DNA of 64,000 bases, from contig CM102284.1 of assembly GCA_046563655.1 (NCBI GenBank), positions 9,176,001 through 9,240,000 of the forward strand, written 5' to 3'. Under the pieces are notes generated by a model that was not told the DNA's origin, ran no database searches, and saw nothing but the letters and a program-made list of their open reading frames with translations. The position numbers and the translations under genes are program-made. Positions 49,301-61,400 of this stretch are shown here, in pieces (position 1 is the first letter of the stretch; each line of letters begins with the position of its first letter). The stretch comes from Yuukianura sp. NJ FZ-2021. Its lineage: Eukaryota.

Positions 49301-52300
49301 CAACTTTCAAAATCACGATTTCTCAACGTTTTTTGGCAATTTAAACTGAAAGTTGTCATTTTTTTTAGACCACACTGGCCCTTCATCTCCAATTTTTGAT
49401 CCGATCCAATAAATCGGACTTGGCAATTCTGAAACAAACGAAAGATGCTGTTCGAGTTACAATTTGTCACACGTCAACTGTCATTGCAAACGCTTTTATG
49501 CACTCTGGCACAACTTCGGATCAGTTCTTACGTGAAAATTTGGATTGGCTGTCACGAGCAACGAATTGGGCCAAATTCACTGCTACAGCAAGTCTCGGAG
49601 TGATTCACCGTGGACATGAAAAGGAAGCCATGAATTTGATGAATACTTATTTGCCACGTGAGGGTGGAGCCACCAGTGGCTACTCAGAAGGTGGAGCCCT
49701 CTATGCCCTTGGACTCATTCACGCCAACCATGGAACTGCCATTACCAATTACCTCCTGAGTCAACTGCGTGATTCAAACAATGAAATGATTAAACATGGA
49801 GGATGTCTGGGACTGGGATTGGCAAGTATGGGAAGCAAGAAGACGGAAGTTTACGAAGTACTCAAAAGTACTTTGTATCATGACGATGCTGTTACTGGAG
49901 AAGCTGCTGGAATTAGTATGGGGTTGGTCATGCTGGGCTCGATGGACCAGAAAGCAATTGAGGATATGGTGGCTTATGCACAGGAGACGCAACACGAAAA
50001 AATATTGCGCGGACTTGCACTTGGAATTTCGCTGTTGGTGTTTGGACGACTGGAAACTGCTGATGTTCTTATTGAACGACTTTTGAAGGACAAGGTATTG
50101 GTGAAAAATCAAATTTTTTGTTGTTTTTTTTTTCAAGAAAAAAAAATTTCAAAATTGATTTTTTTTCTTTTGAAGGATGCACTTCTGCGACGTGCTGGTG
50201 TTCTGTCGGTCGCAATGGCATATTGTGGAACTGCTGCCAATTCGGCTATTCAAAAATTATTGAAAGTCGCTGTATCAGATACGAATGACGACGTTCGTCG
50301 AGCTGCCGTGATTGGTCTAGGATTTCTTCTTTTCCGCACTCCCGAACAATGCCCGAGCGTCGTCTCCTTATTGGCTGAAAGCTATAATCCGCATGTTCGA
50401 TACGGAGCAGCGATGGCTATCGGTATTGCTTGTGCTGGAACTGGAAGCAAGGTTAGATACTCGAAAAAGTGGAATTGTCGCCTTTTTCGAAATTTTTTGA
50501 AAATGGTTTATGATTTTTTTTTTGTAGGAAGCAATTGCTCTGATTGAACCCTTGACCCAAGATCCTGTCAACTACGTTCGTCAAGGAGCTTTGATGGCCT
50601 CTGCCATGGTTTGCATCCAACAAACGGAAGTTCTCTGTCCAAAGGTCAAGGACTTCAGAGCCCTCTACGCCAAAGTGATTAACGACAAGCATGACGACGT
50701 TATGGCCAAGTTTGGAGCAATTTTAGCCCAAGGAATCATTGACGGAGGTGGTCGAAATGTCACGGTGACGCTGAGTTCCAGAACCGGCCATGTTTGGCTG
50801 CAGGGAGCTGTTGGCATGTTGCTGTTTACGCACTACTGGTATTGGTTTCCAATGTCACTCTGTCTCGGACTCGCCTTTGCTCCTTCTACCATCATTGCAG
50901 TCAACAAAAATCTTGAGGTTTGCCAAAACATTTTAATTGCTAAGCGCGTAGCTGCTTTTTCGCGAAATCGAAGTGCAATCAGGTTTGTGATGCAGGATTT
51001 CATGATTCACACTGGATTCGCATGAAGCGAATCTACTCTTTTCCTTCTATTGTGGTCATAAACCACTTCCTCTGCTGGACTAGTCAGGGTGCTCTGCGTT
51101 GTTTGGTTAGGCGAGGGACGCTTCTGAGAATTTTTCGTCACTCTCCCTCTCCCCCTCTTCTGTTCGTGTGAATTTTGAAGAGGTCGTACTTAAGCCGAAG
51201 TGGGGAAAAGGGTGAAAAACAGTTCTAAACATACGGCAGGTTTCAGAGTTTGCTCGTTTTGTTACAATTTGCAACTCTAACTTTCATCTACCATTTCAAT
51301 TTTGAATTTCAGCTTGAAATTTTTAAAGCTACCCGGATAAGTTTGTTCGAAATTTTGCTAGAATTTCAAAGTTTAGGCTGAAACTATTTCGGAAATGGAA
51401 GCTACAGCTAAGGATCAGCTGAGAGACGCTTGTTCAAAGTGTCCAAGTCCAAAAGTTAGAAAAAATCAGGCATCGATTCAGTGCTGTCAGTGTAAAAACT
51501 CGTACTTCAAGATGTGTCCACTTCTGAAATCACAAAACCAACATTATCAGAGCAAAAACCAAAAGAACGGAACTTGGCACTGTCTGACATGTCGCTCTGA
51601 CCGTCCAAAAACTTTCTGTTCGATGTGCTTAGACGACCGGAACGTTAAACTGTTGAGCTGTAGCGGCTGTGAGTACAAGTATCATGCTGACTGCGTCAAC
51701 CGAGTTGACCTGATCGTTAAGGTCAAGGGAGCTGTTGACGGGTCAAGAGATTGGAACTGTTCGAAATGTGAACCATCGTCAGCATCACCAGTGAAACATC
51801 CAGTGGCTTCTTTTGAAAAATTTCTGAGCTTGAAGCAAGATGGGCTTAAAATTTTGCATTTGAATATCAACTCACTTTTGAACAAATTTGGAAAAGTGGA
51901 GGAACTTTTACTTAAAAATCGAGTTGATGTTTTTGGAATTTCGGAAACGCAGTTAGTCAGCAGTGATGCTCGGGAAAGTTTTGAGGCAGAAGGTTACCAA
52001 CTAATTAGAAGAGATCGTCCAAGTATTCATGATACTCGTAAGAAAAGTCGTGGCGGTGGATTAGCATTGTACGTTCATAAGGATTATACTGCCAAAGTTG
52101 TTGAAGAAGACGAGCAGTACTATAGTTGTGACCTCATCGAATATTTGGTGGTGAAATTAAGCTGTGCAGCAACAGGAGTTTCATTTTCAGTGATTTTAGT
52201 TTATAGTCCGAAACCAGGAAATCCGAAACTGAAAGACAGGCTGGCAGAGTTAGTTGTTGAAGCTAAGAGATACAAACCCCGAAATGAAGTATTTATCCTT

Positions 52301-53492
52301 GGAGATACAAATATTGATTTGCTATCGGAGTCCAAAGTGGCAGTCAATCTGAAGGAGATGCTGGCGGAGAGGGAATTTTTGCCGCTGGTGTTGCAACCGA
52401 CTCGAGTGGACAGAAATGGCGGAAAGTGTATTGACTTGATTGCTACGGATGCAGACAGAAAAGGAATCGGTGCTAAGGGGGTCGTCAATTTGAATTGGGC
52501 TGATCATTACATTGTGTATGGATTCCGGAAAGCGTCGACGCTGGAGTTGAAAGCAGGATAGAACGGCAGGAGAGCAGAGACAGCGATGTGGGCTGTCGAA
52601 TTTGTGTTTGTTTGTGTTTTCTTTGTCCAAAAGTGCTGCGAGTGAGAGTCAAACTTTCTGGAAAAATCAAAGTGTAGGTTGATTCTGTCAAAATTCTTAA
52701 TACTTTTATAGAATTTGGATTTAAACAGTTTGAGGTTGACGAAACGCGAGGATAATTCACAGGGAATTTTAAATTTTGACAATTTTTGGAGAATTTGTTG
52801 GTAATTTGTGTTTTCGTTGTTTTTGCAGATGCCGGTGTTGCAGTTCAAGTCAAATGCTAAGCCGTCGACATTCGCTTATCCTCCACCATTGGAGGAAAAG
52901 AAGAAAGAAGAGAAGGAACGCGTAGCAACAGCGATTTTGTCCGTGACGGCAAAGGCCAAGCGTCGTGAAGAAATCAAAGGCAAGAAGGAGGAGGAAGCGA
53001 TGGAAGTGGAAGAAGAACCACCGAAACCAGTAGAGGAAGAAAAGAAAGAAGTCAAAAAGGAAGAACCGAACTTTGAGATGTTGTCAAATCCAGCTCGAGT
53101 GATGAAGCAGCAGGTAAACATACTTTGGAAATGAAAATCTAAAAAATTTTGAAAAGCTTTATTTGAAAATGTTTGAAAAGTTTACTTACTGTGTATTTTT
53201 GAAATTGTAGGTCCGTTATATCGAGTTTTGCGATGAGAAGAAGCGATGGCGTCCGGTGAAGGAAGGAACAACCGGTGGAATCCTTGTCGTGAGAGACTAC
53301 GCTCCCGATGAACCTGTCACTCTTGTCCAAGCCGTTGCAGGTACTTTTTGAATTTAACTTAATTGAGTAACTTAATTAAAGTGTGCTAAAACTTAATAAT
53401 TTGTGTGTTTTGCAGCTCACGGACCACGAAGGGAAGAGGAAGAAGAAGAGCCAGGTCCACCAGAGCCGTTTGAGTACAACGATGAAGATTAA
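46357..53492 (+). CDS. Rpn2: 26S proteasome non-ATPase regulatory subunit 1 (Rpn2/PSMD1), 11 coding exons
   Basis: Exons 46357-46381, 48018-48135, 48202-48555, 48676-48837, 48919-49282, 49369-50094, 50176-50451, 50528-50917, 52829-53113, 53211-53340, 53416-53492. Spliced product: [17 protein letters not shown]...[17 protein letters not shown]...PC repeats...[11 protein letters not shown], all hallmark PSMD1 sequence. Confidence 0.96.
46851..47635 (+). CDS. CHCHD4: Mitochondrial IMS import oxidoreductase MIA40/CHCHD4, nested in an Rpn2 intron (2 exons)
   Basis: Exons 46851-47182 and 47263-47635. [18 protein letters not shown] (CPC redox motif), twin CX9C ([22 protein letters not shown]), YPELY and an acidic tail. 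Confidence 0.93.
51395..52561 (+). CDS. Tandem PHD finger + APE-like (EEP family) endonuclease, non-LTR-retrotransposon derived, no RT; nested in Rpn2 intron 50918-52828
   Basis: Uninterrupted 388-aa ORF. PHD1 CxxC..CxxC..(K)xC..WxCxxC (His replaced); PHD2 canonical C4HC3. EEP motifs in order: [49 protein letters not shown]. Stop follows shortly after the DH motif. Confidence 0.85.
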   Translation: MEATAKDQLRDACSKCPSPKVRKNQASIQCCQCKNSYFKMCPLLKSQNQHYQSKNQKNGTWHCLTCRSDRPKTFCSMCLDDRNVKLLSCSGCEYKYHADCVNRVDLIVKVKGAVDGSRDWNCSKCEPSSASPVKHPVASFEKFLSLKQDGLKILHLNINSLLNKFGKVEELLLKNRVDVFGISETQLVSSDARESFEAEGYQLIRRDRPSIHDTRKKSRGGGLALYVHKDYTAKVVEEDEQYYSCDLIEYLVVKLSCAATGVSFSVILVYSPKPGNPKLKDRLAELVVEAKRYKPRNEVFILGDTNIDLLSESKVAVNLKEMLAEREFLPLVLQPTRVDRNGGKCIDLIATDADRKGIGAKGVVNLNWADHYIVYGFRKASTLELKAG

Positions 53493-54044
53493 AAGCATCA
53501 AGAAACACACAAGAATTCTAAATAATTACTACAATGTTTCCCTAATTTAATAATAACTTAAAACATACTGTAAAAATGTTGCACATCTGTTTCTCAAAAT
53601 CTATCTATTAATAAAATATAATTACTATAATATGATAATAATTATTATTACAATAAAAGGAGTTGTTAGAATTGCTAAGCGAAATAAAAGAAAATGACTT
53701 TGTTCAATTGCACTTGCTTCACGCCAGTTACTAAATATCAGGGAGGAAAAGAATTAATTTTAATATGGCGTTTGGTTGTAGCACTGAAAACTTATTTTCG
53801 TTTTTTTTTTAATTTTAAGCATATTGTAATCTGAGTTAATAATCTTAATAATCTGAGTATTGCCTCAATTATTAACTGAGCGGAATTAATTTATTTTTAT
53901 AAAATCGTACTAATTATAATTAGTAATTTATTAATTAATACAAGTTGATTTGTTGTTGTTTCAGACTTTTAAACGGAGAGAAAACCGACTTGAGACACGA
54001 CATTCTCAAAAGAGCGGGAAAATGGATGAAATTAGTGTTTGAAT

Positions 54045-54575
54045 AATTTGTGTGGTTGGTGTAGCAGTTACTCACACAATTCTTGTCACCCTGTGAATTT
54101 GTGTGGTTGGAGTAGGAGTTACTGCACACCACCCTTGTCACCCACTCTGATTTTGAACTGAAGTTTAACATTGGGGGATAGGCAGAAGAGAGGAAAAGTT
54201 GAGAGGAGATTATGCGAAGCAGGAAGGCTACACTCCCTTCCCTATCCTTACCCTCTGAATTTGTGTGGTTGGAGTAGGAGTTACTGCACACCACCCTTGT
54301 CACCCACTCTGATTTTGAACTGAAGTTTAACATTGGGGGATAGGCAGAAGAGAGGAAAAGTTGAGAGGAGATTATGCGAAGCAGGAAGGCTACACTCCCT
54401 TCCCTATCCTTACCCTCTGAATTTGTGTGGTTTTTGTAGGAGTTACTGCACACCACCCTTGTCACCCACTCTGATTTTGAACTGAAGTTTAACATTGGGG
54501 GATAGGCAGAAGAGAGGAAAAGTTGACAGGAGATTATGCGAAGCAAGAAGGCTACACTCCCTTCCCTATCCTTCT
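54045..54575. repeat. 162-bp tandem repeat (~3 copies) in the Rpn2-RSF1 convergent intergenic region
   Basis: Near-identical units start at about 54096, 54258 and 54419, preceded by a shorter diverged sub-repeat. Confidence 0.92.
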
Positions 54576-54705
54576 CCCGGCACATGCATTCCCATACAAA
54601 AAGCAAAGGAGAGAAATAGCCCTATCTCGCCTCTTCGCTTCGTACAATCTCCGATCTACTTTTCTGCTCTCTCGTCCATCTCCGATGTAAAACACTGCTT
54701 CCAAA
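54529..54705 (-). repeat. Dispersed ~175-bp module, copy B
   Basis: The reverse complement shares four blocks with 8526-8701 at identical offsets. Confidence 0.85.
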
Positions 54706-55407
54706 CTTCGCAAAAGACATTCTTTTCTTATGTCATCCCGTTTTAGATTTTTAAAAATCTTAAATTCATCATTTCAACGTTTTATCATTTCTGTGACTCC
54801 AGTGCTCGTACTAAAAATCCAGTTAAGTATTTATTCTTGGGCTCGCTACAATAATACTTTTCATTTTGAGAATTTTTTTTAATCAAACTTGTTCTAAAAA
54901 CGGAAGAATTAGGTTTAATGGACCTCTCTTTCGTTCCTCGCTTCTTCTTAGATGTTCAAAGGTCAAAGGGTAAGTTGTAGTTGTGCTTGCGTCAAATTTA
55001 ACGAAATTTTTATCAAAACAAAAGTGTCACGTTAAGTAAAAAAAATCCAAACCGAAAGCTGTCATTTGACATTCCAATAAAAGTATAGGTACATTTACAA
55101 TATCTAATTGAATAACTACTAGTAAATAATAATAAAGTAATCCTAACTTTTAGCATAGGTAACGTAAAGTACTAAGGGGTTATCGTTGCACTTGCAATTA
55201 CAATTTAAACAATTCACAACTGATACAACTCGGATTCTAAGAACTTATGACTAAAACTTAATTTATAAACTTATTATTTTCTATGTTAAATATAACTTTA
55301 ACTCTATTCATAAAAAACTGATCGTTACGCTTAAAGTTTTGTGAATACTTCCAAAGGTAGTACGAAACAATTGTTCATGTGACATGCCATGTCTTCTGGA
55401 GGGTCCT

Positions 55408-58400
55408 TCAAGTGTCCATGTCTTCTTCCCCTCGTTGACTACTGAAGTACGACACCAGACCGCCGAATTCTCCATCAGATTTGTTCTCTTCTTTTGGTAC
55501 AGCAGCAGGGGACGAAGGTCGACGCTCCTGGCCTCCTTCTTCTTTGAATTCAGCTTCTTCCGGTCTAAAAACAGTATTAACCAGATCAAAAACTTAGTTA
55601 ATGGGACTAGTCAATTAGTAATCTAGTCTCACCTGTAGTCAAATTGCTGTGGTTGTGTGGCAGGATACAATGGGCCTTGTGGTGGAATTCCATAAGAAGT
55701 TGGTGGCCCACCGAATCCTCCGTGGGGCCCAAAGAATCGTTCATGACTGGATTGGAGATGGGCAAGAATATTTGGCGGTGGGATTCCTCTTCCGCCACAG
55801 TTTCCTTGTGGTGGCATTCGGTACATCATTTGTGGTGGTCCCGGTGGTTCTCGCTTGAACTGTTGAAATGACTGCAAAGGTGGACCAGATCCTGAACCAG
55901 GATTCGGTATTCTCAATGTTGGTGGAGGAATGTAACCGGACCTGCAAATCGTTTAAAATTCAAAAATCGTTTTCATTTCACGAAAATAGTTCTGCTTGAT
56001 TTGAAACCTGACCTTGGAGGATAAATAGAGCTGCTCAGCGCCTGCGCTTTGCCCAATCCTTGCGGAGGTGACGGAGCTCCTCTTACTTGGTACGGAGGAG
56101 GTGGAGGTCCAATATTTCTTTCCCACGGAAACCTAATTAATTAAGTATAAACCAATTAATCAAGTCCTAAATGGTTAGAAGTACTTGGAATACCTCATTC
56201 CTTGATTTTGGGGGTAGTACGCAGGATTAGGCACTCGAGATATTTCGGAAGGCGGGAGAAGTGTATGTGCTTGATGTGGAGGGGAAGATAACCCTCGATG
56301 TGGTGGTGTCGCTTTGCCAGAAAATAATGCCGCACTTCCTGGAATCGGAGCCGTCGGAGGTGGAATTGGAATTTGCGGAGCCGTCACTCGAGGTCCAGGA
56401 AGTGGGATTTGTGGCGGGACACCAGGAGATGGTGGTGGAGATGCTTGGTGTTTAGCTTTTTGTGTTGTGGGTGCTGGTGGAGGCGGTGTTTGTTGTTTCT
56501 TTCTGCCAGAAGATGCCAAGATTTCACTCATCATTAGATTCGTCGATGGTTGAGATACTGCTGGAAGTGGAGGAGCAGGAACTACTGGTGGAGTCGTTGA
56601 CCGTTGCGGGGAAGCAGTTGTTGGTGGCGGTGTTTTAATTCTCGGTTCTTGTGGAACTACAGTAGGAATTACCGGAACTGGAGGAAGTACTGGAGGCGGA
56701 GCTGTTGGAATCACGGGCCTTCTGATTGGTGGAAACGGTGGAGCCGGAACTGGTTTCAGTAACTGAGCCACCAACTTCGACGGTTCTTCAGACGCTGAAT
56801 CTTCGCTGCTGCTTAGCAACGCCATTGATTTCTTCTTTGGAGTACTTTTTCCCGGAACTAAGGAAATTGGTGGTGAAACTTTTTGTTTCTTTGGATAGAC
56901 TTTGGGAGACTTGATCTTCAGTGGAGGAATTTTATTTGGTGAAGATTTGCTGGGTTGCAGTTTGGCTGGAGTTGCTGCATTAGCCAGTGAAGTTGTAGCT
57001 GCTAGAGCTTGCGCAGCATTCAGTTCTGCTACGAGTTGCTTCGAACTGGATGGTTCTTGAGAATCCATGTCAAGGTCAGGAACAACAGGCTTCCTAAATA
57101 GAACAAAAGAACAGGCAGAGTTAACATTTTGTACAACAAAACAACATTTTTGTAAACAAAGTTCAAAATCTCATTACTGTCTCTTTGGATGAATATTTCC
57201 ATCGTCATCGGATTCACCAGATTCCAAAATTCCCTTGAAGTCGATCTGTTTCCCTCGTGTTGAACGTTTTGTAGACGATTCCGTGTCGGCCTTCTTTACT
57301 TTTCCACCATGTTTCTAAAAAACCCAATAAAGCCCGTTTCAAATGAAAGAAAAGTTAACTTTTGAAAAGAAGTTTTATTTTACATGATTTTCAATTTCTG
57401 GAAAATGAAAATACCCCTAACGTTTACAGCCAAGTTTAAACAAACAAAAATTTGAAACTTCAAATTCGAAATTAGAATAAAAAAAAAAACTATGAAAAAT
57501 TAAAAATCCATCAGTGATTTCTAATAACCTTGAGCTTTTTCGGTTCCTGAAACTTGAATGCGCTCAAATCAAACTTTTTAACATTGCTATTATTTCCTTC
57601 AGAAAAACTACTCATAGCTTTCTCTCTGACCTTAAGTCGTAGCATCTCAGCCCTATCTTGTCCACAATTATAATTTTCAGAACTTACACTCCAAGCGCGA
57701 TCAGAGTCATCTTCGTCCACCTTCTTCTTTTTCTTTAGACTTGGTCGTTTTTTAGTCTTGGATTTGGAAGATGATGATCCGCCAGAATTCAAAAAGAACG
57801 CTGATTTTCTAAGTTTCGATGGCGGATGATACGATGTCTTCTTCTTCTTCCTTTTCCCCCAAGTTTCGTCATCTGATTCAGAAAGTGACGAAGCCTCCGA
57901 CTCCGAGCCCCAACCACCAGCAGGTTCGTCATCGTCATCCTCTTGATCACTCTCATCATCTGAAACACATTTTAAAAACTGGAATTACCAAAAACCGACC
58001 TAAACTGTCTAAAAATTGAGAAACTTAGAATTTGAATTTCAAAAACTTACAAACAATTCGAGATCTTGCTTTTCGACTTGACCGACGAACGGATCCGACA
58101 TCCAAATACTTCTCTTGTCTTCCAAGTTTTCCCTTCTTCCCTCTCTTGGCAATTGAATCATCCGATTCATCAGCATCTCTATCTCCAGACCACTCTGAAT
58201 CTTCATCTTCAACTGCATAGGGCTCATCTTCCTCATCATCTTCTTCAGATCCTTTGAAATCTTCATCAGAATCTTCATCACTCGGAGCATCCAAATCATT
58301 GAGTCTCCTTCTAGATTTTCGATTACTCTGTTTCTCCAGCTCTTTTCTTCGATTTCTCTCCGTTTCGTCAATATCTTCTTCGTCACTTGACTCATCCTTC

Positions 58401-61400
58401 TTTTCCTTTGCTTGATTCTCTTCCTCGTCTTCTTCATCTGATGATCCCGGCATTACTTTTCCTTTGCTCGGAACCAATTTTGGTGGCGGTGGATCGTTTT
58501 CACCGGTTTCCCCATTTTCTTGTGGTGGTGGTAAAATTGGCTTTGTCGCTTCGCCCTCCAGCAGCGGAAGTTCATACTCATCTTCATTCTAAAAAACAAT
58601 TCTAATTTCAAAATTTCAAAATCCAGGGAGCATTTTGCCCATTTGGAACAATCAAAAACTTTACCCTGAGAGCAGAGTTGATCATATCATCATATTCTTT
58701 AAAATTGAACGACTTCGTAGTTCTTCTAGCCCGCAACTTATACATTGGCTCATCTTCTGATTCTTCGGAATTGTATCTGGACAGATTACTGGAATCATCA
58801 CGGTCATCAATAAACGTTTCTCTTCCTCCGCCTTGCATAAGTTCATCTTCTTCATCATCTGAACTAATCTGCCTTCGTTTCTTCTTTATCCTCTCCTGTT
58901 TTATTGGTTTCCCATTTTGAGTTTCCTCTTTTTGGTTATTCGGTGGAAGAACATTGTCCAAGCTTATCCCGACATAAGCCAGTCTTTGTTTCCGCAAAAC
59001 TTCCAGCTCGTGCTTCTTCACAATCTTGTCATACTCAACTAAATTCTCGTTCAGCTTCTCAATCAGCATTTTCTGAAATTTCCGAAACCAAAACTATTGC
59101 ATTTTGGAAGGATTTTTCGAAATGTCTGGAAACAAGTTGGTTCTGTAACTTACATGCTGGCAAGTAGGACAAAACCATTGACCTTCCGGAATGACCCAGA
59201 TGACGGGACGCAGACACGACGCGTGCCACCCCTTGTCACACGAATCACAGAGCAGAATCCACTCGGGATGGTCGCCTTTCCCGCACTTATTGCAATTCGT
59301 ATCAGCATACTTGTCTTCCTTCACTTCACCTAAAAAATGAAAACAAGTAATGAATTTTAAAATTCCTACCTGAGTAGTAAAAGAAACGAAAGACAGATGA
59401 CAAATGAAGGATTTAGTTTGAACATTTGGAAAAACGAGTGTTTTTAGTTTAAAGAAAAGTGTCATACCCCGTTTGACAGTTCGAGCATGTCGACTTGGTG
59501 AAGCATCCCCGTCATCTTCTCCCATGTCACTCTCCGGTGAAAATTCATGGTCCGATCGGAGTGTCATGTCCTCCTCTTCTTCTTCATGGATGTCATGCTC
59601 CTCTTCTTCTTCCTCAACTTCATCTTCATCTTCAGACGAAGTGTGAATCCATGGATTCAAACCTTTCTTCATCAACGTTTTTGGTGGCTCTTCATGCTTC
59701 CTCTTTCTTCCGCGCTTTTTCGATCGCTGAATCGCTGTTTCAACTTCTTCATCTGACTCTGTTCCGGAAGGCGTCGGAAGATACTTTGATGCTGTTTTTG
59801 GAGGTCGACCTTTCCTTGGTTTCGGTTTTTCAGTTCCATCTTCCTCCTCGGCAAGCCCCTTCGTCTGCAAAACGAAATCATATTTTCAAAATTCGATTCA
59901 AAATGTTCAAAATATCAAAAAACTGAAACTTTTTCAATCACCTGTTTCTGCTCTCGTTCTTGCTGTTGTTGCTGCTTCCTTATTTGAGCTGCTTTGAGTT
60001 GCGCTAGTCTCTCTTCCTCTAATTTCCTTCGCTGCTCTTCCTCCTTTTCTTGAATTTTGGCAATCCGACTGCTCTGTCTCGTCGGTATTTCAACTGTGAG
60101 TCGTCCATTGGATTTTTTCTTTATAGAAGTTGGCGTAGAGTTGGCACTAGCATTTGAAGATTCGTCCAAGTCTTGTACCACTGGCTGTTTCGGTTTTCGC
60201 CCACTTCCGGGCTTCCTCGGAGCTCCACTTTTGTTAATCCCCGGAGGCTTCCTTCCAGGCGGTCTTCCTCTTCCTCGTCCTCTCGTTGGTATCGCTGGAG
60301 AAACGTTTTCATCACTGGAACTTTCAGATTCAATAGATTCTGCAGTGTTATTCAATGATCCTGTTCCAGCGTATCCAACTTCTGGATTTCCTCCTTCCAG
60401 CTCAGCTCCGGCACCTTCGCCTACAATGAACATCATCTCTTCCTCTATCGCTTCACCGATGATAGGGTTCTCTTCTGGAATCGTGGGATTCTCTTCTGGA
60501 ATCGTGGGGTTCTCTTCTGGAATCGTGGGGTTTTCTTCTGGCATCGCGGGGTTCTGCTCGGGGACCGTGGGGTTCTCTTCTGGAATCGATGGAGCTTCCA
60601 AAAGCGAAGCTTTTGCCTCAGAAGTCTCAGTCTGGTTAAGGTCCAACTTTGGCAATTTTGAAGGATTCTCCAGAATTGGAGATTCGGCTCTCCTTTTTCC
60701 TGGAGCTTCTTCGTTAACAGCATCTGCGATTTCTGAGGACTTGCTTTCAGCGATTTCCGGAGACTTCCTTTCAGGGATTTCTGAAGACTTGCTTTCGGTG
60801 ATTTCAGAATACTTGCTTTCAGCGATTCCTGGAGACTTGCTTTCAGGCATTTCTGAAGACGAAGACTTGCTTTGAGCGATTTCTGAAGGTTTGCTATTAG
60901 CAGTTTCTGAGTTGCTTTCAGCGATTTCAGTTTGTGGAATGGACGAATCTTGGGCATCTTCATCCTCATCAGAACTAAAATCATAAGCCACCAAACCCGA
61001 CAATTGGTTAGATACGGTAGACTCCGTCTGCGTGATTCCGGAATTTGTTGAAGCGGTAGCTTGAACTTCACATGCTTCGGAAACTGTGTCCATTGCTTCT
61101 ATATTTTTGGAATCGCTGGTCCGCGAGGCAACCATTGCTTCAGTAGCTGGAGAGTTCAGCGGTATCAATTCCACCTTACTGGAAACAGTCTCGTCTTTAT
61201 CAGAAACTCTACCGCCATCGTCTGATTGTGTCGGTTGGACTTCGGCTTCATTGTTTTCCTCTTCGCCAACTAATGTTGAATTGTGAGGAGCAGAGTCCAT
61301 GTCACCCTGTTGCTGCTCAGTTTCGACAGGAACTGAAGAATCTAGTTGATGCTGGTCGTCATGAATTTCACTCGGTGGATTAGCATCGCTAGAAGTACAT

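What the first reader, a model, noticed from the sequence alone, without database searches (positions are those of the whole stretch)
51395..52561. Intact double-PHD + APE endonuclease ORF without reverse transcriptase, nested in an Rpn2 intron: candidate domesticated chromatin-targeted nuclease
Seen: a 388-aa ORF with no stops or frameshifts, on the Rpn2 sense strand, fills a 1.9-kb intron in a gene whose non-hosting introns are only ~65-120 nt. It encodes two PHD fingers and an EEP endonuclease with the expected catalytic positions in order (N, E, Y, D-x-N, D, D-H). The TAG falls about 17 codons after the last catalytic His. The 267 nt left to the Rpn2 acceptor have no RT sequence, poly(A) or 3' microsatellite tail, and I found no TSD. 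A candidate 73-nt GT-AG intron (51240-51312, CTAAC branch) lies upstream of the ATG. Known: PHD and APE domains occur in CR1-clade non-LTR retrotransposons, where APE is normally fused to RT and dead copies are usually 5'-truncated (lose EN, keep RT). Inference: the opposite pattern here suggests either a host-recruited histone-reader nuclease or an RT-less element mobilised in trans.
Basis: partly seen in the sequence, partly recalled or inferred. Interest (0 to 1): 0.8.

Follow-up and report, generated by a model that had tools for sequence, protein, structure and literature searches.

The report
Conserved retrotransposon-derived endonuclease gene without RT
An intact gene for a zinc-finger plus DNA-cutting module, taken from a LINE retrotransposon and stripped of its reverse transcriptase, sits in the same proteasome-gene intron in two divergent relatives and is kept by strong purifying selection, so it looks like a rare host-adopted LINE endonuclease rather than a dead insertion.

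Summary
The ORF is real: window 51395-52561 (+), 388 aa, inside a 1,911-nt Rpn2 intron (50918-52828). Pfam, a PDB profile search and AlphaFold/Foldseek agree on a LINE-type APE/EEP endonuclease. All mapped catalytic residues are present. Upstream lie one canonical PHD finger and one PHD-like finger that has lost its His zinc ligand.

A collinear metagenome contig (L001) carries the same arrangement: Rpn2 exon, 385-aa ORF, Rpn2 exon. Its ORF stops at the same point, just after the endonuclease. The two ORFs are 58% identical in protein. Their synonymous sites are saturated (18 of 67 four-fold sites identical) and the intron flanks no longer align. Pairwise ML omega is 0.045, and omega = 1 is rejected (2dlnL 194.5, p 3e-44). 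Of 12 listed within-species variants in the ORF, 9 are synonymous.

No RT homology exists in the window or in L001. The nearest RT-bearing relatives are about 30% identical LINEs built as 2A-like peptide, PHD, PHD, APE, RT.

Verdict: a domesticated, RT-less LINE endonuclease gene, not a recent truncated insertion. Expression, genome-wide copy number and biochemical function are untested: no RNA run and no whole genome were available. Chromatin-guided nicking is inferred, not shown.

The parts
50528..50917 (+). Rpn2/PSMD1 exon upstream of the hosting intron; ends in phase 0 (...AVNKNLE)
   Evidence: tblastn with Rpn2 proteins P0160 and P0165. 126 of 130 aa are identical to the L001 exon; pS 0.61, pN 0.03.
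50918..52828 (+). Hosting Rpn2 intron, 1,911 nt, GT...AG
   Evidence: Sequence. Exon borders are fixed by the alignment to L001 and to Rpn2 proteins. The L001 counterpart is 516-2244, 1,729 nt.
51240..51312 (+). Candidate 73-nt GT-AG intron in a possible 5' UTR (CTAAC at 51277-51281); unverified
   Evidence: Sequence only. L001 has a comparable 77-nt GT-AG candidate at 788-864, ending 54 nt before its ATG. No RNA data.
51395..52561 (+). Intact ORF, 388 aa plus TAG: PHD-like finger, PHD finger, APE/EEP endonuclease
   Evidence: An in-frame stop lies 6 codons upstream. The L001 ortholog is 57.8% identical; omega 0.045.
51431..51592 (+). PHD-like finger 1 (residues 13-66): seven Cys in canonical positions, W61, but F38 in place of the His ligand
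   Evidence: Alignment A2: His in 15 of 15 LINE relatives, F or Y in the 2 orthologs that have this region. Predicted fold matches the Pygo PHD finger, Z 5.7, rmsd 2.8 A over 60 residues. Not called by Pfam in the window protein.
51617..51769 (+). PHD finger 2 (residues 75-125), canonical C4HC3 (C75, C78, C89, C92, H97, C100, C122, C125)
   Evidence: Pfam PF00628, 28 bits when residues 1-135 are scanned alone, cut-off 24. Fold matches BRPF1 and JADE1 PHD fingers, Z 5.5.
51845..52531 (+). APE-type (EEP) endonuclease domain (residues 151-379) with N157, E184, Y270, D304, N306, T336, D347, D370, H371
   Evidence: Pfam PF03372. Family profile against PDB: human L1 ORF2p, E 8e-47. AlphaFold model has block pLDDT mostly 89-98 across this region, apart from dips at about 211-220 and 241-250. 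Best Foldseek matches are L1 ORF2p and its EN domain, E 8e-14, target-normalised TM 0.73.
52532..52561 (+). Non-conserved C-terminal tail (ASTLELKAG) and TAG
   Evidence: L001 stops directly after ...VYGVRK, and P0003 ends at ...VRKE. One run carries a 7-nt deletion at 52544 that rewrites only the residues after position 383.
52562..52828 (+). 267 nt of intron between the stop and the Rpn2 acceptor; no RT remnant, no poly(A) signal, no repeat
   Evidence: tblastn with four RT-bearing relatives finds nothing here. No AATAAA-type hexamer. No tandem repeat.
52829..53116 (+). Rpn2 exon downstream of the hosting intron ([15 protein letters not shown]...)
   Evidence: Against L001: pS 0.75, pN 0.044.

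Best explanation
This is a single-locus gene derived from the 5' part of a LINE (non-LTR retrotransposon) of the single-ORF type with 2A-like, PHD, PHD, APE and RT parts. An ancestral copy landed in sense orientation in an Rpn2 intron. It lost the 2A-like leader and everything after the endonuclease. Since then it has been kept as a protein-coding gene in at least two, probably three, deeply diverged lineages.

Shown: orthologous or collinear position, identical domain boundaries, intact frames, strong purifying selection on all three domains, a complete catalytic residue set, and absence of RT.

Inferred: the protein starts at its own ATG, because in-frame stops lie just upstream in both species. 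It would be translated from a transcript that starts in the intron or is processed from Rpn2 pre-mRNA. It would act as a Mg2+-dependent DNA nicking enzyme, brought to chromatin by its tandem PHD module, most probably through PHD2 binding a histone H3 tail.

What the nick is used for is open. The options are a host DNA transaction, or interference with related LINEs.
For: (1) Synteny. L001 is collinear with window 50526-60448 over about 9 kb of exons. It holds a 385-aa ORF between the same two Rpn2 exons.

(2) Selection. Nei-Gojobori pS is 0.815 and pN 0.285 over 372 codons. Of 67 four-fold sites, 18 are identical, which is saturation. Identity by codon position is 0.66, 0.73 and 0.41. ML GY94 gives omega 0.045; omega = 1 is rejected with 2dlnL 194.5, p 3e-44; omega = 0.10 already costs 2dlnL 3.96. 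By part, pN is 0.33 for PHD1, 0.26 for PHD2 and 0.24 for EN, against 0.54 for the linker.

(3) Intron flanks. They give no blastn match. Global alignment against shuffles gives z 1.5 for the 5' flank and 4.1 for the 3' flank.

(4) Within-species variation. Four DNA runs from two samples and two studies cover the ORF. No indel lies in 51395-52531, while the flanks carry four. Of the 12 listed ORF variants, 9 are synonymous against an expected share of 0.22 (binomial p 1.2e-4). All 8 variants listed for run X4 are synonymous.

(5) Catalytic residues N157, E184, Y270, D304, N306, T336, D347, D370 and H371 are kept in 3 of 3 orthologs. The EN model is confident and closest to human L1 EN.

(6) Origin. 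The three orthologs form a clade (support 1.0, stem 1.25 substitutions per site). That clade is sister (support 0.79) to RT-bearing PHD-PHD-APE LINE proteins. Of 8 scanned relatives, 4 carry RVT_1. Of 15 LINE relatives, 7 have an NPGP motif just before PHD1.

(7) A shared derived loss of the PHD1 His ligand (F or Y in 2 of 2 orthologs, His in 15 of 15 LINEs) points to a single origin.

(8) No RT homology in the window or in L001.
Against: - No expression evidence: no RNA run holds the stretch. The promoter, the 5' UTR intron and the 3' end are unknown.
- The window has no AATAAA-type signal after the stop; L001 has one at 2149.
- No whole genome is held, so genome-wide copy number and the presence of related active LINEs are untested. 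The contig depths are similar for the ORF and its flanks, but the tool warns that they are not copy numbers.
- DNA is available for only two orthologs. The third (P0003) is a 240-aa fragment whose context I could not fetch.
- L001 could be a diverged paralogous segment rather than another species. That would not change the selection result.
- dS is saturated, so omega has only an upper bound.
- PHD1 lacks a zinc ligand. The PHD module matches histone readers only weakly: Foldseek found nothing at E <= 0.001, and the best VIA Z was 5.7. No histone-binding residues were established.
- A369 replaces the Ser found next to the D-H pair in the other two orthologs and in L1.
Confidence: 0.72

Rival explanations
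1. Recent 3'-truncated or internally deleted LINE insertion that is still open by chance (a dead element).
For: The domain set (PHD, APE) is that of LINE ORFs, and distant relatives are LINEs. Predicted proteins of about 430 aa with PHD and EEP but no RT form clusters in Cnidaria and Mollusca; these are probably LINE fragments.
Against: The nearest RT-bearing relative is only about 30% identical. The same ORF with the same ends sits in the collinear intron of L001 at saturated synonymous divergence, with omega 0.045. The chance of a 388-codon open frame is about 8e-12. Target-primed reverse transcription normally truncates 5' ends, not 3' ends (established knowledge).
Confidence: 0.03
2. A non-autonomous, RT-less mobile element family. 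It encodes its own PHD-endonuclease and is copied by an RT supplied in trans. The two Rpn2-intron copies are independent or site-specific insertions.
For: Purifying selection on an ORF is also expected for an active element. Genome-wide copy number could not be measured. P0013 (493 aa, on a 4,594-nt contig) also ends about 10 residues after the EN domain.
Against: Both copies lie in the same intron, same strand, within a collinear gene order. They share a derived loss of the PHD1 His ligand. There is no 3' tail, poly(A) or microsatellite and no second copy in 64 + 12 kb. Only two relatives above 50% identity turned up: among 2,874 word-sharing candidates from a database of 5.8 billion protein clusters, and among 1.84 billion representatives that HMMER read in full. 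An active family would normally leave many. Contig depths of the ORF match the flanks (weak evidence).
Confidence: 0.05
3. The ORF is an alternative coding exon of Rpn2 (a proteasome-subunit fusion isoform), not an independent gene.
For: It has the same strand as Rpn2 and the intron is phase 0. In L001 an acceptor-like ...TTTTTCTCGTAG ends at 864, exactly where the open frame begins. Splicing from the upstream exon would therefore be in frame there. LINE ORF1-derived exons fused to host genes are known (PMC12129022, abstract and passages read).
Against: In the window an in-frame stop lies 6 codons before the ATG. The only acceptor-like site (51312) is out of frame and runs into a stop after 22 codons. 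A fusion is therefore not conserved. The one-in-three frame match in L001 may be chance.
Confidence: 0.05
4. A domesticated gene whose selected role is not DNA nicking for a host process but defence against related LINEs. It would compete for target sites or chromatin marks, or act as a dominant-negative EN module. This is a variant of the best explanation, not an alternative origin.
For: It keeps the targeting (PHD) and DNA-engaging (EN) parts but lacks RT. A repressor role has been proposed for L1TD1 and Lyosin (PMC12129022, passages read). The long stem branch after separation from the LINEs fits a change of function.
Against: A pure competitor would not need all nine catalytic residues kept in 3 of 3 orthologs. 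No related LINE was seen in the 64-kb window. Nothing was tested functionally.
Confidence: 0.2

Closest known systems
Single-ORF APE-type LINEs with a 2A-like peptide and PHD domain(s) upstream of APE (Crack-17_BF, CR1-1/17/26_BF, STR-24/25/34/35_SP in PMC3708506; single-ORF PHD-first elements of L2 subgroup 4 and CR1 subgroup 6 in PMC4120745)
   Same: Same order of PHD-type fingers directly before an APE endonuclease. About 30% identity over residues 12-382 to RT-bearing proteins P0012, P0014 and P0016. The EN tree places the gene as sister to them.
   Different: No RT, no 2A-like NPGP leader, no 3' tail. Single conserved locus under purifying selection. PHD1 has lost its His ligand. The LINE clade was not assigned, because no RT classification tool was available.
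BCNT-p97 (ruminant bucentaur paralogue), which carries an intact endonuclease domain from the LINE RTE-1 (as described in PMC12129022, passages read; the original Iwashita et al. 2006 paper was not read)
   Same: A LINE APE-type endonuclease retained without RT in a host gene. Its molecular function is unknown.
   Different: There the EN is fused to host BCNT exons, comes from the RTE clade and is ruminant-specific. Here the module stands alone with its own ATG, carries PHD fingers, comes from a different LINE lineage and sits in an arthropod-like genome.
L1TD1 and Lyosin (LINE-1 ORF1-derived host genes or exons; PMC4161310 search listing only, PMC12129022 abstract and passages)
   Same: Rare examples of LINE protein-coding sequence kept by purifying selection in host genomes.
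   Different: Those derive from the non-enzymatic ORF1 RNA-binding protein. This gene derives from the enzymatic endonuclease part.
Human LINE-1 ORF2p endonuclease domain (PDB 1vyb, 7n8s, 9k6i)
   Same: Closest solved fold: Foldseek E 8e-14, target-normalised TM 0.73. The catalytic residues align.
   Different: 16-19% identity. L1 EN is the N-terminus of an EN-RT polyprotein and has no PHD fingers.
Tandem PHD histone readers (MOZ, MORF, DPF2/3 double PHD finger; Pygo PHD)
   Same: Two consecutive PHD-type zinc fingers. The best structural matches to residues 1-135 are all PHD modules.
   Different: The matches are weak: Foldseek best E 5e-3 with rmsd about 10 A over the pair, and single-finger Z no higher than 5.7. 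PHD1 lacks the His ligand. No histone-binding residues were established.

Membership tests
APE-type (EEP, Pfam PF03372) endonuclease of non-LTR retrotransposons | EEP fold with significant family match | tested here: met
   PF03372 E 1.4e-7, 32 bits against a cut-off of 24.5. The model's best matches are L1 ORF2p and its EN domain, E 8e-14.
APE-type (EEP, Pfam PF03372) endonuclease of non-LTR retrotransposons | Catalytic residues equivalent to L1 EN N14, E43, Y115, D145, N147, T192, D205, D229, H230 (L1 numbering recalled; equivalence read from the alignment) | tested here: met
   N157, E184, Y270, D304, N306, T336, D347, D370 and H371 are present in the window protein and invariant in 3 of 3 orthologs.
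APE-type (EEP, Pfam PF03372) endonuclease of non-LTR retrotransposons | DNA nicking activity | not testable with these tools
   Needs purified protein and a plasmid or oligonucleotide nicking assay.
Autonomous LINE / LINE ORF2 | Reverse transcriptase domain downstream of EN in the same element | tested here: not met
   tblastn with four RT-bearing relatives matches only their PHD-EN parts (query residues up to 537). There is no RT match in the window or L001 at E <= 0.01. The ORF stops 17 codons after H371.
Autonomous LINE / LINE ORF2 | 3' tail (poly(A) or microsatellite) and multiple dispersed copies | tested here: inconclusive
   No tail or repeat in 52562-52828 and no second copy in the window or L001. 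Genome-wide copy number could not be tested.
Autonomous LINE / LINE ORF2 | 2A-like NPGP leader, as in the closest LINE relatives | tested here: not met
   7 of 15 LINE relatives have NPGP directly before PHD1. Neither ortholog with an N-terminus has it.
PHD finger (C4HC3 zinc finger, PF00628) | Cys4-His-Cys3 ligand pattern, finger 2 (residues 75-125) | tested here: met
   C75, C78, C89, C92, H97, C100, C122, C125. Pfam 28 bits on residues 1-135, and 34.6 bits for the L001 protein. VIA Z 5.5 to BRPF1 and JADE1 PHD fingers.
PHD finger (C4HC3 zinc finger, PF00628) | Cys4-His-Cys3 ligand pattern, finger 1 (residues 13-66) | tested here: not met
   Seven Cys are in place, but the His position is F38 (Y in L001), against His in 15 of 15 LINE relatives. 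The predicted fold is still PHD-like: Pygo PHD, Z 5.7.
PHD finger (C4HC3 zinc finger, PF00628) | Binding of histone H3 tails | not testable with these tools
   Needs peptide arrays or ITC. No reader-pocket residues could be assigned from the weak matches.
Domesticated transposable-element gene | Same (syntenic) locus in diverged lineages | tested here: met
   Same Rpn2 intron, same strand, collinear flanking genes over about 9 kb in L001.
Domesticated transposable-element gene | Intact ORF under purifying selection (dN/dS well below 1) | tested here: met
   Omega 0.045; LRT against omega = 1 gives p 3e-44. 9 of the 12 listed polymorphisms are synonymous.
Domesticated transposable-element gene | Loss of mobility functions and single copy | tested here: inconclusive
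   RT, 2A leader and tail are absent. Single-copy status is only suggested by equal contig depths and could not be checked genome-wide.
Domesticated transposable-element gene | Expression as a host transcript or protein | not testable with these tools
   No RNA run holding the stretch was listed.
BCNT-p97-type host/LINE-EN fusion | EN domain translated as part of a host protein | tested here: not met
   An in-frame stop lies 6 codons upstream of the ATG in the window. The only acceptor-like site is out of frame.

The most novel reading that the evidence does not exclude
A LINE endonuclease with its own chromatin-reading fingers has been adopted as a stand-alone, catalytically active host enzyme. 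It would be a histone-guided DNA nickase, nested in and perhaps co-transcribed with a housekeeping proteasome gene, and used for a host genome transaction such as programmed nicking or breakage, or retroelement control, in an under-sampled arthropod-like lineage. It would be the first free-standing domesticated LINE APE module, and a natural handle on what PHD fingers do in LINEs.
Probability: 0.4. Interest if true: 0.8.

Novelty: new variant of a known kind. Interest (0 to 1): 0.65.

Why it matters
Host adoption of LINE proteins is rare compared with DNA transposons and LTR elements. The papers I read name only L1TD1, a few ORF1-derived exons, and BCNT-p97 with an RTE-1 endonuclease of unknown function (PMC12129022, passages read).

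A free-standing PHD-PHD-APE gene is kept under omega below about 0.1 across saturated synonymous divergence. That shows the enzymatic half of a LINE can be retained without RT. It gives a single-copy, tractable protein for two questions. Do LINE PHD fingers read chromatin? PMC4120745 states that no functional study of them exists. What can a cell use a retrotransposon nickase for?

It is also a clean example of a same-strand nested gene in an intron of an essential housekeeping gene.

Tried and rejected
- **Whole-genome copy number.** No genome is held for this window, so copy number and RT-bearing relatives in the same genome could not be searched.
- **First metagenome scan.** The scan with the single protein found no relative. 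The second, with alignment A1, found one locus, L001.
- **RNA evidence.** No RNA holder was listed for 50500-53200. Only DNA contigs could be laid, so expression, transcript ends and the 51240-51312 splice are untested.
- **Earlier notes of this scan.** Nothing for this genome or this sequence.
- **Rfam and tRNA scan of the window.** No hit. They gave no help with taxon or with spliced-leader RNA.
- **Taxon.** The Atlas search of an Rpn2 fragment was uninformative. A protein search put the best named Rpn2 relatives in arthropods: the springtail Orchesella at 79%, Daphnia at 77%, and Folsomia, horseshoe crab and mites at 76% over 196 aa. The species remains unknown.
- **Single-sequence PDB search.** It gave only weak PHD hits, with best E 0.034. 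The family profile was needed to reach L1 ORF2p.
- **Foldseek with the N-terminal model.** No match at E <= 0.001. VIA-align gave modest Z values, at most 5.7, all to PHD fingers.
- **Rpn2 fusion isoform.** Rejected as a conserved feature; see the rival explanations.
- **Conserved promoter or flank elements.** There is no alignable flank. The 3' flank gives z 4.1 in a global alignment, which I did not interpret.
- **My first dN/dS run on the upstream exon** used a coordinate off by one. It was corrected.
- **Two literature searches** failed on term syntax and were re-sent.
- **Literature on this kind of gene.** Searches returned no paper describing a stand-alone PHD-APE host gene. That covers only the held library. 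Supplements were not consulted.

Full report
**Observation**

The window holds an ATG-to-TAG ORF of 388 aa at 51395-52561 on the + strand. An in-frame stop lies 6 codons upstream of the ATG.

The ORF sits in an Rpn2/PSMD1 gene on the same strand. tblastn with two Rpn2 proteins maps exons from 48017 to about 53340. The upstream exon ends at 50917 (...AVNKNLE, phase 0). The next exon starts at 52829 (MPVLQFK...). The hosting intron is therefore 50918-52828, 1,911 nt. Three other introns resolved by tblastn gaps are about 76-82 nt.

With the base composition of the intron flanks, the chance of a 388-codon open frame is about 8e-12.

**Domains**

Pfam finds Exo_endo_phos at residues 155-352 (E 1.4e-7). 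It finds one PHD finger at residues 75-125: 23.3 bits in the whole protein, 28 bits when residues 1-135 are scanned alone, against a cut-off of 24.

A profile of 77 relatives matches human LINE-1 ORF2p in the PDB at E 8e-47. That alignment maps the catalytic set to N157, E184, Y270, D304, N306, T336, D347, D370 and H371. All are present, and all are invariant in the three close relatives.

An AlphaFold model has mean pLDDT 84, with block values mostly 89-98 across the endonuclease region. Its best Foldseek matches are L1 ORF2p and its EN domain (E 8e-14, target-normalised TM 0.73).

Residues 1-135 were folded alone (mean pLDDT 78). They resemble tandem PHD modules only weakly by Foldseek: best is the MOZ double PHD finger at E 5e-3, and nothing reaches E <= 0.001. 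Each half does align to single PHD fingers. Residues 5-68 match Pygo PHD (Z 5.7, rmsd 2.8 A over 60 residues). Residues 73-128 match BRPF1 and JADE1 PHD fingers (Z 5.5).

Finger 2 is canonical C4HC3. Finger 1 keeps seven Cys and the Trp, but has F38 where the His ligand should be.

**The decisive result: a collinear copy elsewhere**

Only two proteins above 50% identity exist in the searched collections. A word-indexed search scored 2,874 candidates from a database of 5.8 billion clusters and found 10 hits at E <= 0.001, 2 of them close. Among 1.84 billion representatives there were 4,418 hits at E <= 1e-3, and only 3 at E <= 1e-30.

One of the two close relatives lies on a metagenome contig that I could fetch as L001. 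L001 is collinear with window 50526-60448 through a series of exons. Between the same two Rpn2 exons it carries an intact 385-aa ORF (919-2076) on the same strand. That ORF stops directly after ...VYGVRK, the end of the endonuclease domain. The L001 intron is 1,729 nt.

The flanks around the ORF give no blastn match. In a global alignment they barely exceed shuffled controls: z 1.5 for the 5' flank and 4.1 for the 3' flank.

The third relative, P0003, is a 240-aa fragment that also ends at ...VRKE. Pairwise protein identities are 57.8% (window vs L001), 56.0% (window vs P0003) and 65.5% (L001 vs P0003).

**Selection**

Over 372 aligned codons, pS is 0.815 and pN 0.285. Of 67 four-fold sites, 18 are identical, which is saturation. 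Identity at codon positions 1, 2 and 3 is 0.66, 0.73 and 0.41.

For comparison, the flanking Rpn2 exons give pS 0.61 and 0.75 with pN 0.03 and 0.044. The two genomes are therefore deeply diverged, and the ORF evolves faster than Rpn2 but clearly as a protein.

A pairwise GY94/F3x4 likelihood fit gives omega 0.045. Omega = 1 is rejected (2dlnL 194.5, p 3e-44), and omega = 0.10 already costs 2dlnL 3.96. Because dS is saturated, only the upper bound is meaningful.

All three domains are constrained: pN is 0.33, 0.26 and 0.24, against 0.54 in the linker.

**Variation within the species**

Four DNA runs from two samples and two studies cover the ORF. No indel lies in 51395-52531, whereas the intron flanks carry four. 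One run has a 7-nt deletion at 52544, which rewrites only the residues after position 383.

Of the 12 variants listed inside the ORF, 9 are synonymous and 3 are conservative (I107V, T260S, D281E). The expected synonymous share is 0.22, so binomial p is 1.2e-4. All 8 variants listed for run X4 are synonymous. The tool showed only the best-supported rows: 22 further rows for the 2.9-kb stretch were not shown.

**Origin**

The next relatives, about 30% identical over residues 12-382, include proteins of 907-1,261 aa. Four of the 8 I scanned carry PHD, EEP and RVT_1 together.

Seven of the 15 LINE relatives aligned have an NPGP motif immediately before the first PHD finger. All 15 have His at the finger-1 ligand position. 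All that extend far enough run on past ...VRK toward RT.

This is the single-ORF LINE architecture described for Crack, CR1 and Rex1 elements, with a PHD domain between a 2A-like peptide and APE (PMC3708506, passages read). It is also described for L2 and CR1 subgroups with an N-terminal PHD (PMC4120745, passages read).

In an EN-domain tree, 71 of 77 sequences were kept (those with at least 170 aligned residues). The three close relatives form a clade with support 1.0 and a long stem of 1.25 substitutions per site. That clade is sister to these LINE proteins with support 0.79.

tblastn with four RT-bearing relatives finds only their PHD-EN parts in the window and L001, and no RT at E <= 0.01. 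The 267 nt after the stop hold no poly(A) signal and no repeat.

**Interpretation**

The ORF is in the corresponding intron of a diverged relative, omega is far below 1, and there are no close RT-bearing copies.

The shared boundaries argue for one ancestral event followed by retention. Both copies have lost the 2A leader, both stop right after EN, and both have lost the finger-1 His. This is a domesticated LINE endonuclease gene.

The complete catalytic set in 3 of 3 orthologs makes an active nuclease the most likely selected function. PHD-guided recruitment to chromatin is inferred from the domain family only.

What the enzyme is used for is open. I rate a host DNA-nicking role somewhat above a LINE-antagonist role, because a pure competitor would not need catalysis.

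**How it is expressed is unknown**

In-frame stops just upstream rule out a conserved Rpn2 fusion. They lie 6 codons before the ATG in the window, and 18 codons before it in L001, where the stop TAG sits at 862-864.

Both species have a GT-AG candidate of 73-77 nt ending 54-82 nt before the ATG: window 51240-51312 and L001 788-864. This could be a 5' UTR intron or an acceptor used on Rpn2 pre-mRNA.

**Limits**

- No genome is held and no RNA run was listed.
- DNA is available for two orthologs only.
- L001 might be a diverged paralogous segment rather than another species. That would leave the selection result intact.
- The organism is unidentified. Its Rpn2 is closest to arthropod proteins, at most 79% to any named species.

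**Comparison with known cases**

The papers I read list few LINE-derived host genes: L1TD1, ORF1-derived exons such as Lyosin, and BCNT-p97. BCNT-p97 keeps an intact RTE-1 endonuclease fused to host exons, and its function is unknown (PMC12129022, abstract and passages).

My searches returned no description of a free-standing PHD-APE host gene. That is a statement about the held library only. I therefore rate this a new variant of a known kind.

Noticed in passing
window 54088-54573: Tandem repeat of 162 nt x 3.0 copies with 98% matches, downstream of the Rpn2 exons. It underlies the repetitive 216-aa minus-strand ORF at 53935-54585.
   Followed up: no
window 52544-52550: A 7-nt deletion is carried by the only contig of run X3 that covers this place. 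It shifts the frame after residue 383 and lengthens the protein to 426 aa, so the C-terminal tail beyond ...YGFRK is variable within the species.
   Followed up: yes
L001 853-865: An acceptor-like TTTTTCTCGTAG ends exactly where the L001 open frame begins. Splicing from the phase-0 Rpn2 exon would be in frame there. The window has no equivalent: it has a stop 6 codons before the ATG.
   Followed up: partly
window 59157-59294 (-): Weak tblastn match (E 0.003, 33% identity) of the PHD region of LINE protein P0016. It is probably a PHD finger of an unrelated host gene in the collinear block.
   Followed up: no
proteins P0013 (493 aa) and P0017 (357 aa), not in the window: These roughly 30%-identical relatives also end about 10 residues after the EN domain. 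P0013 lies on a 4,594-nt contig, so its end is not obviously a contig edge. Other RT-less or broken forms of this LINE family may exist.
   Followed up: no
LINE relatives P0012, P0013, P0014, P0016, P0018, P0049, P0054 (not in the window): A 2A-like G-(V/I/T/Q)-N-x-x-NPGP motif sits directly before the first PHD Cys in 7 of the 15 aligned LINE relatives. This matches the 2A-PHD-APE layout reported in PMC3708506.
   Followed up: partly
window 51395-52561 vs 50528-50917 and 52829-53116: GC3 of the ORF is 0.41, lower than that of the flanking Rpn2 exons (0.52). The same holds in L001: 0.43 against 0.54-0.59. The nested gene's codon usage therefore differs from its highly expressed host.
   Followed up: no
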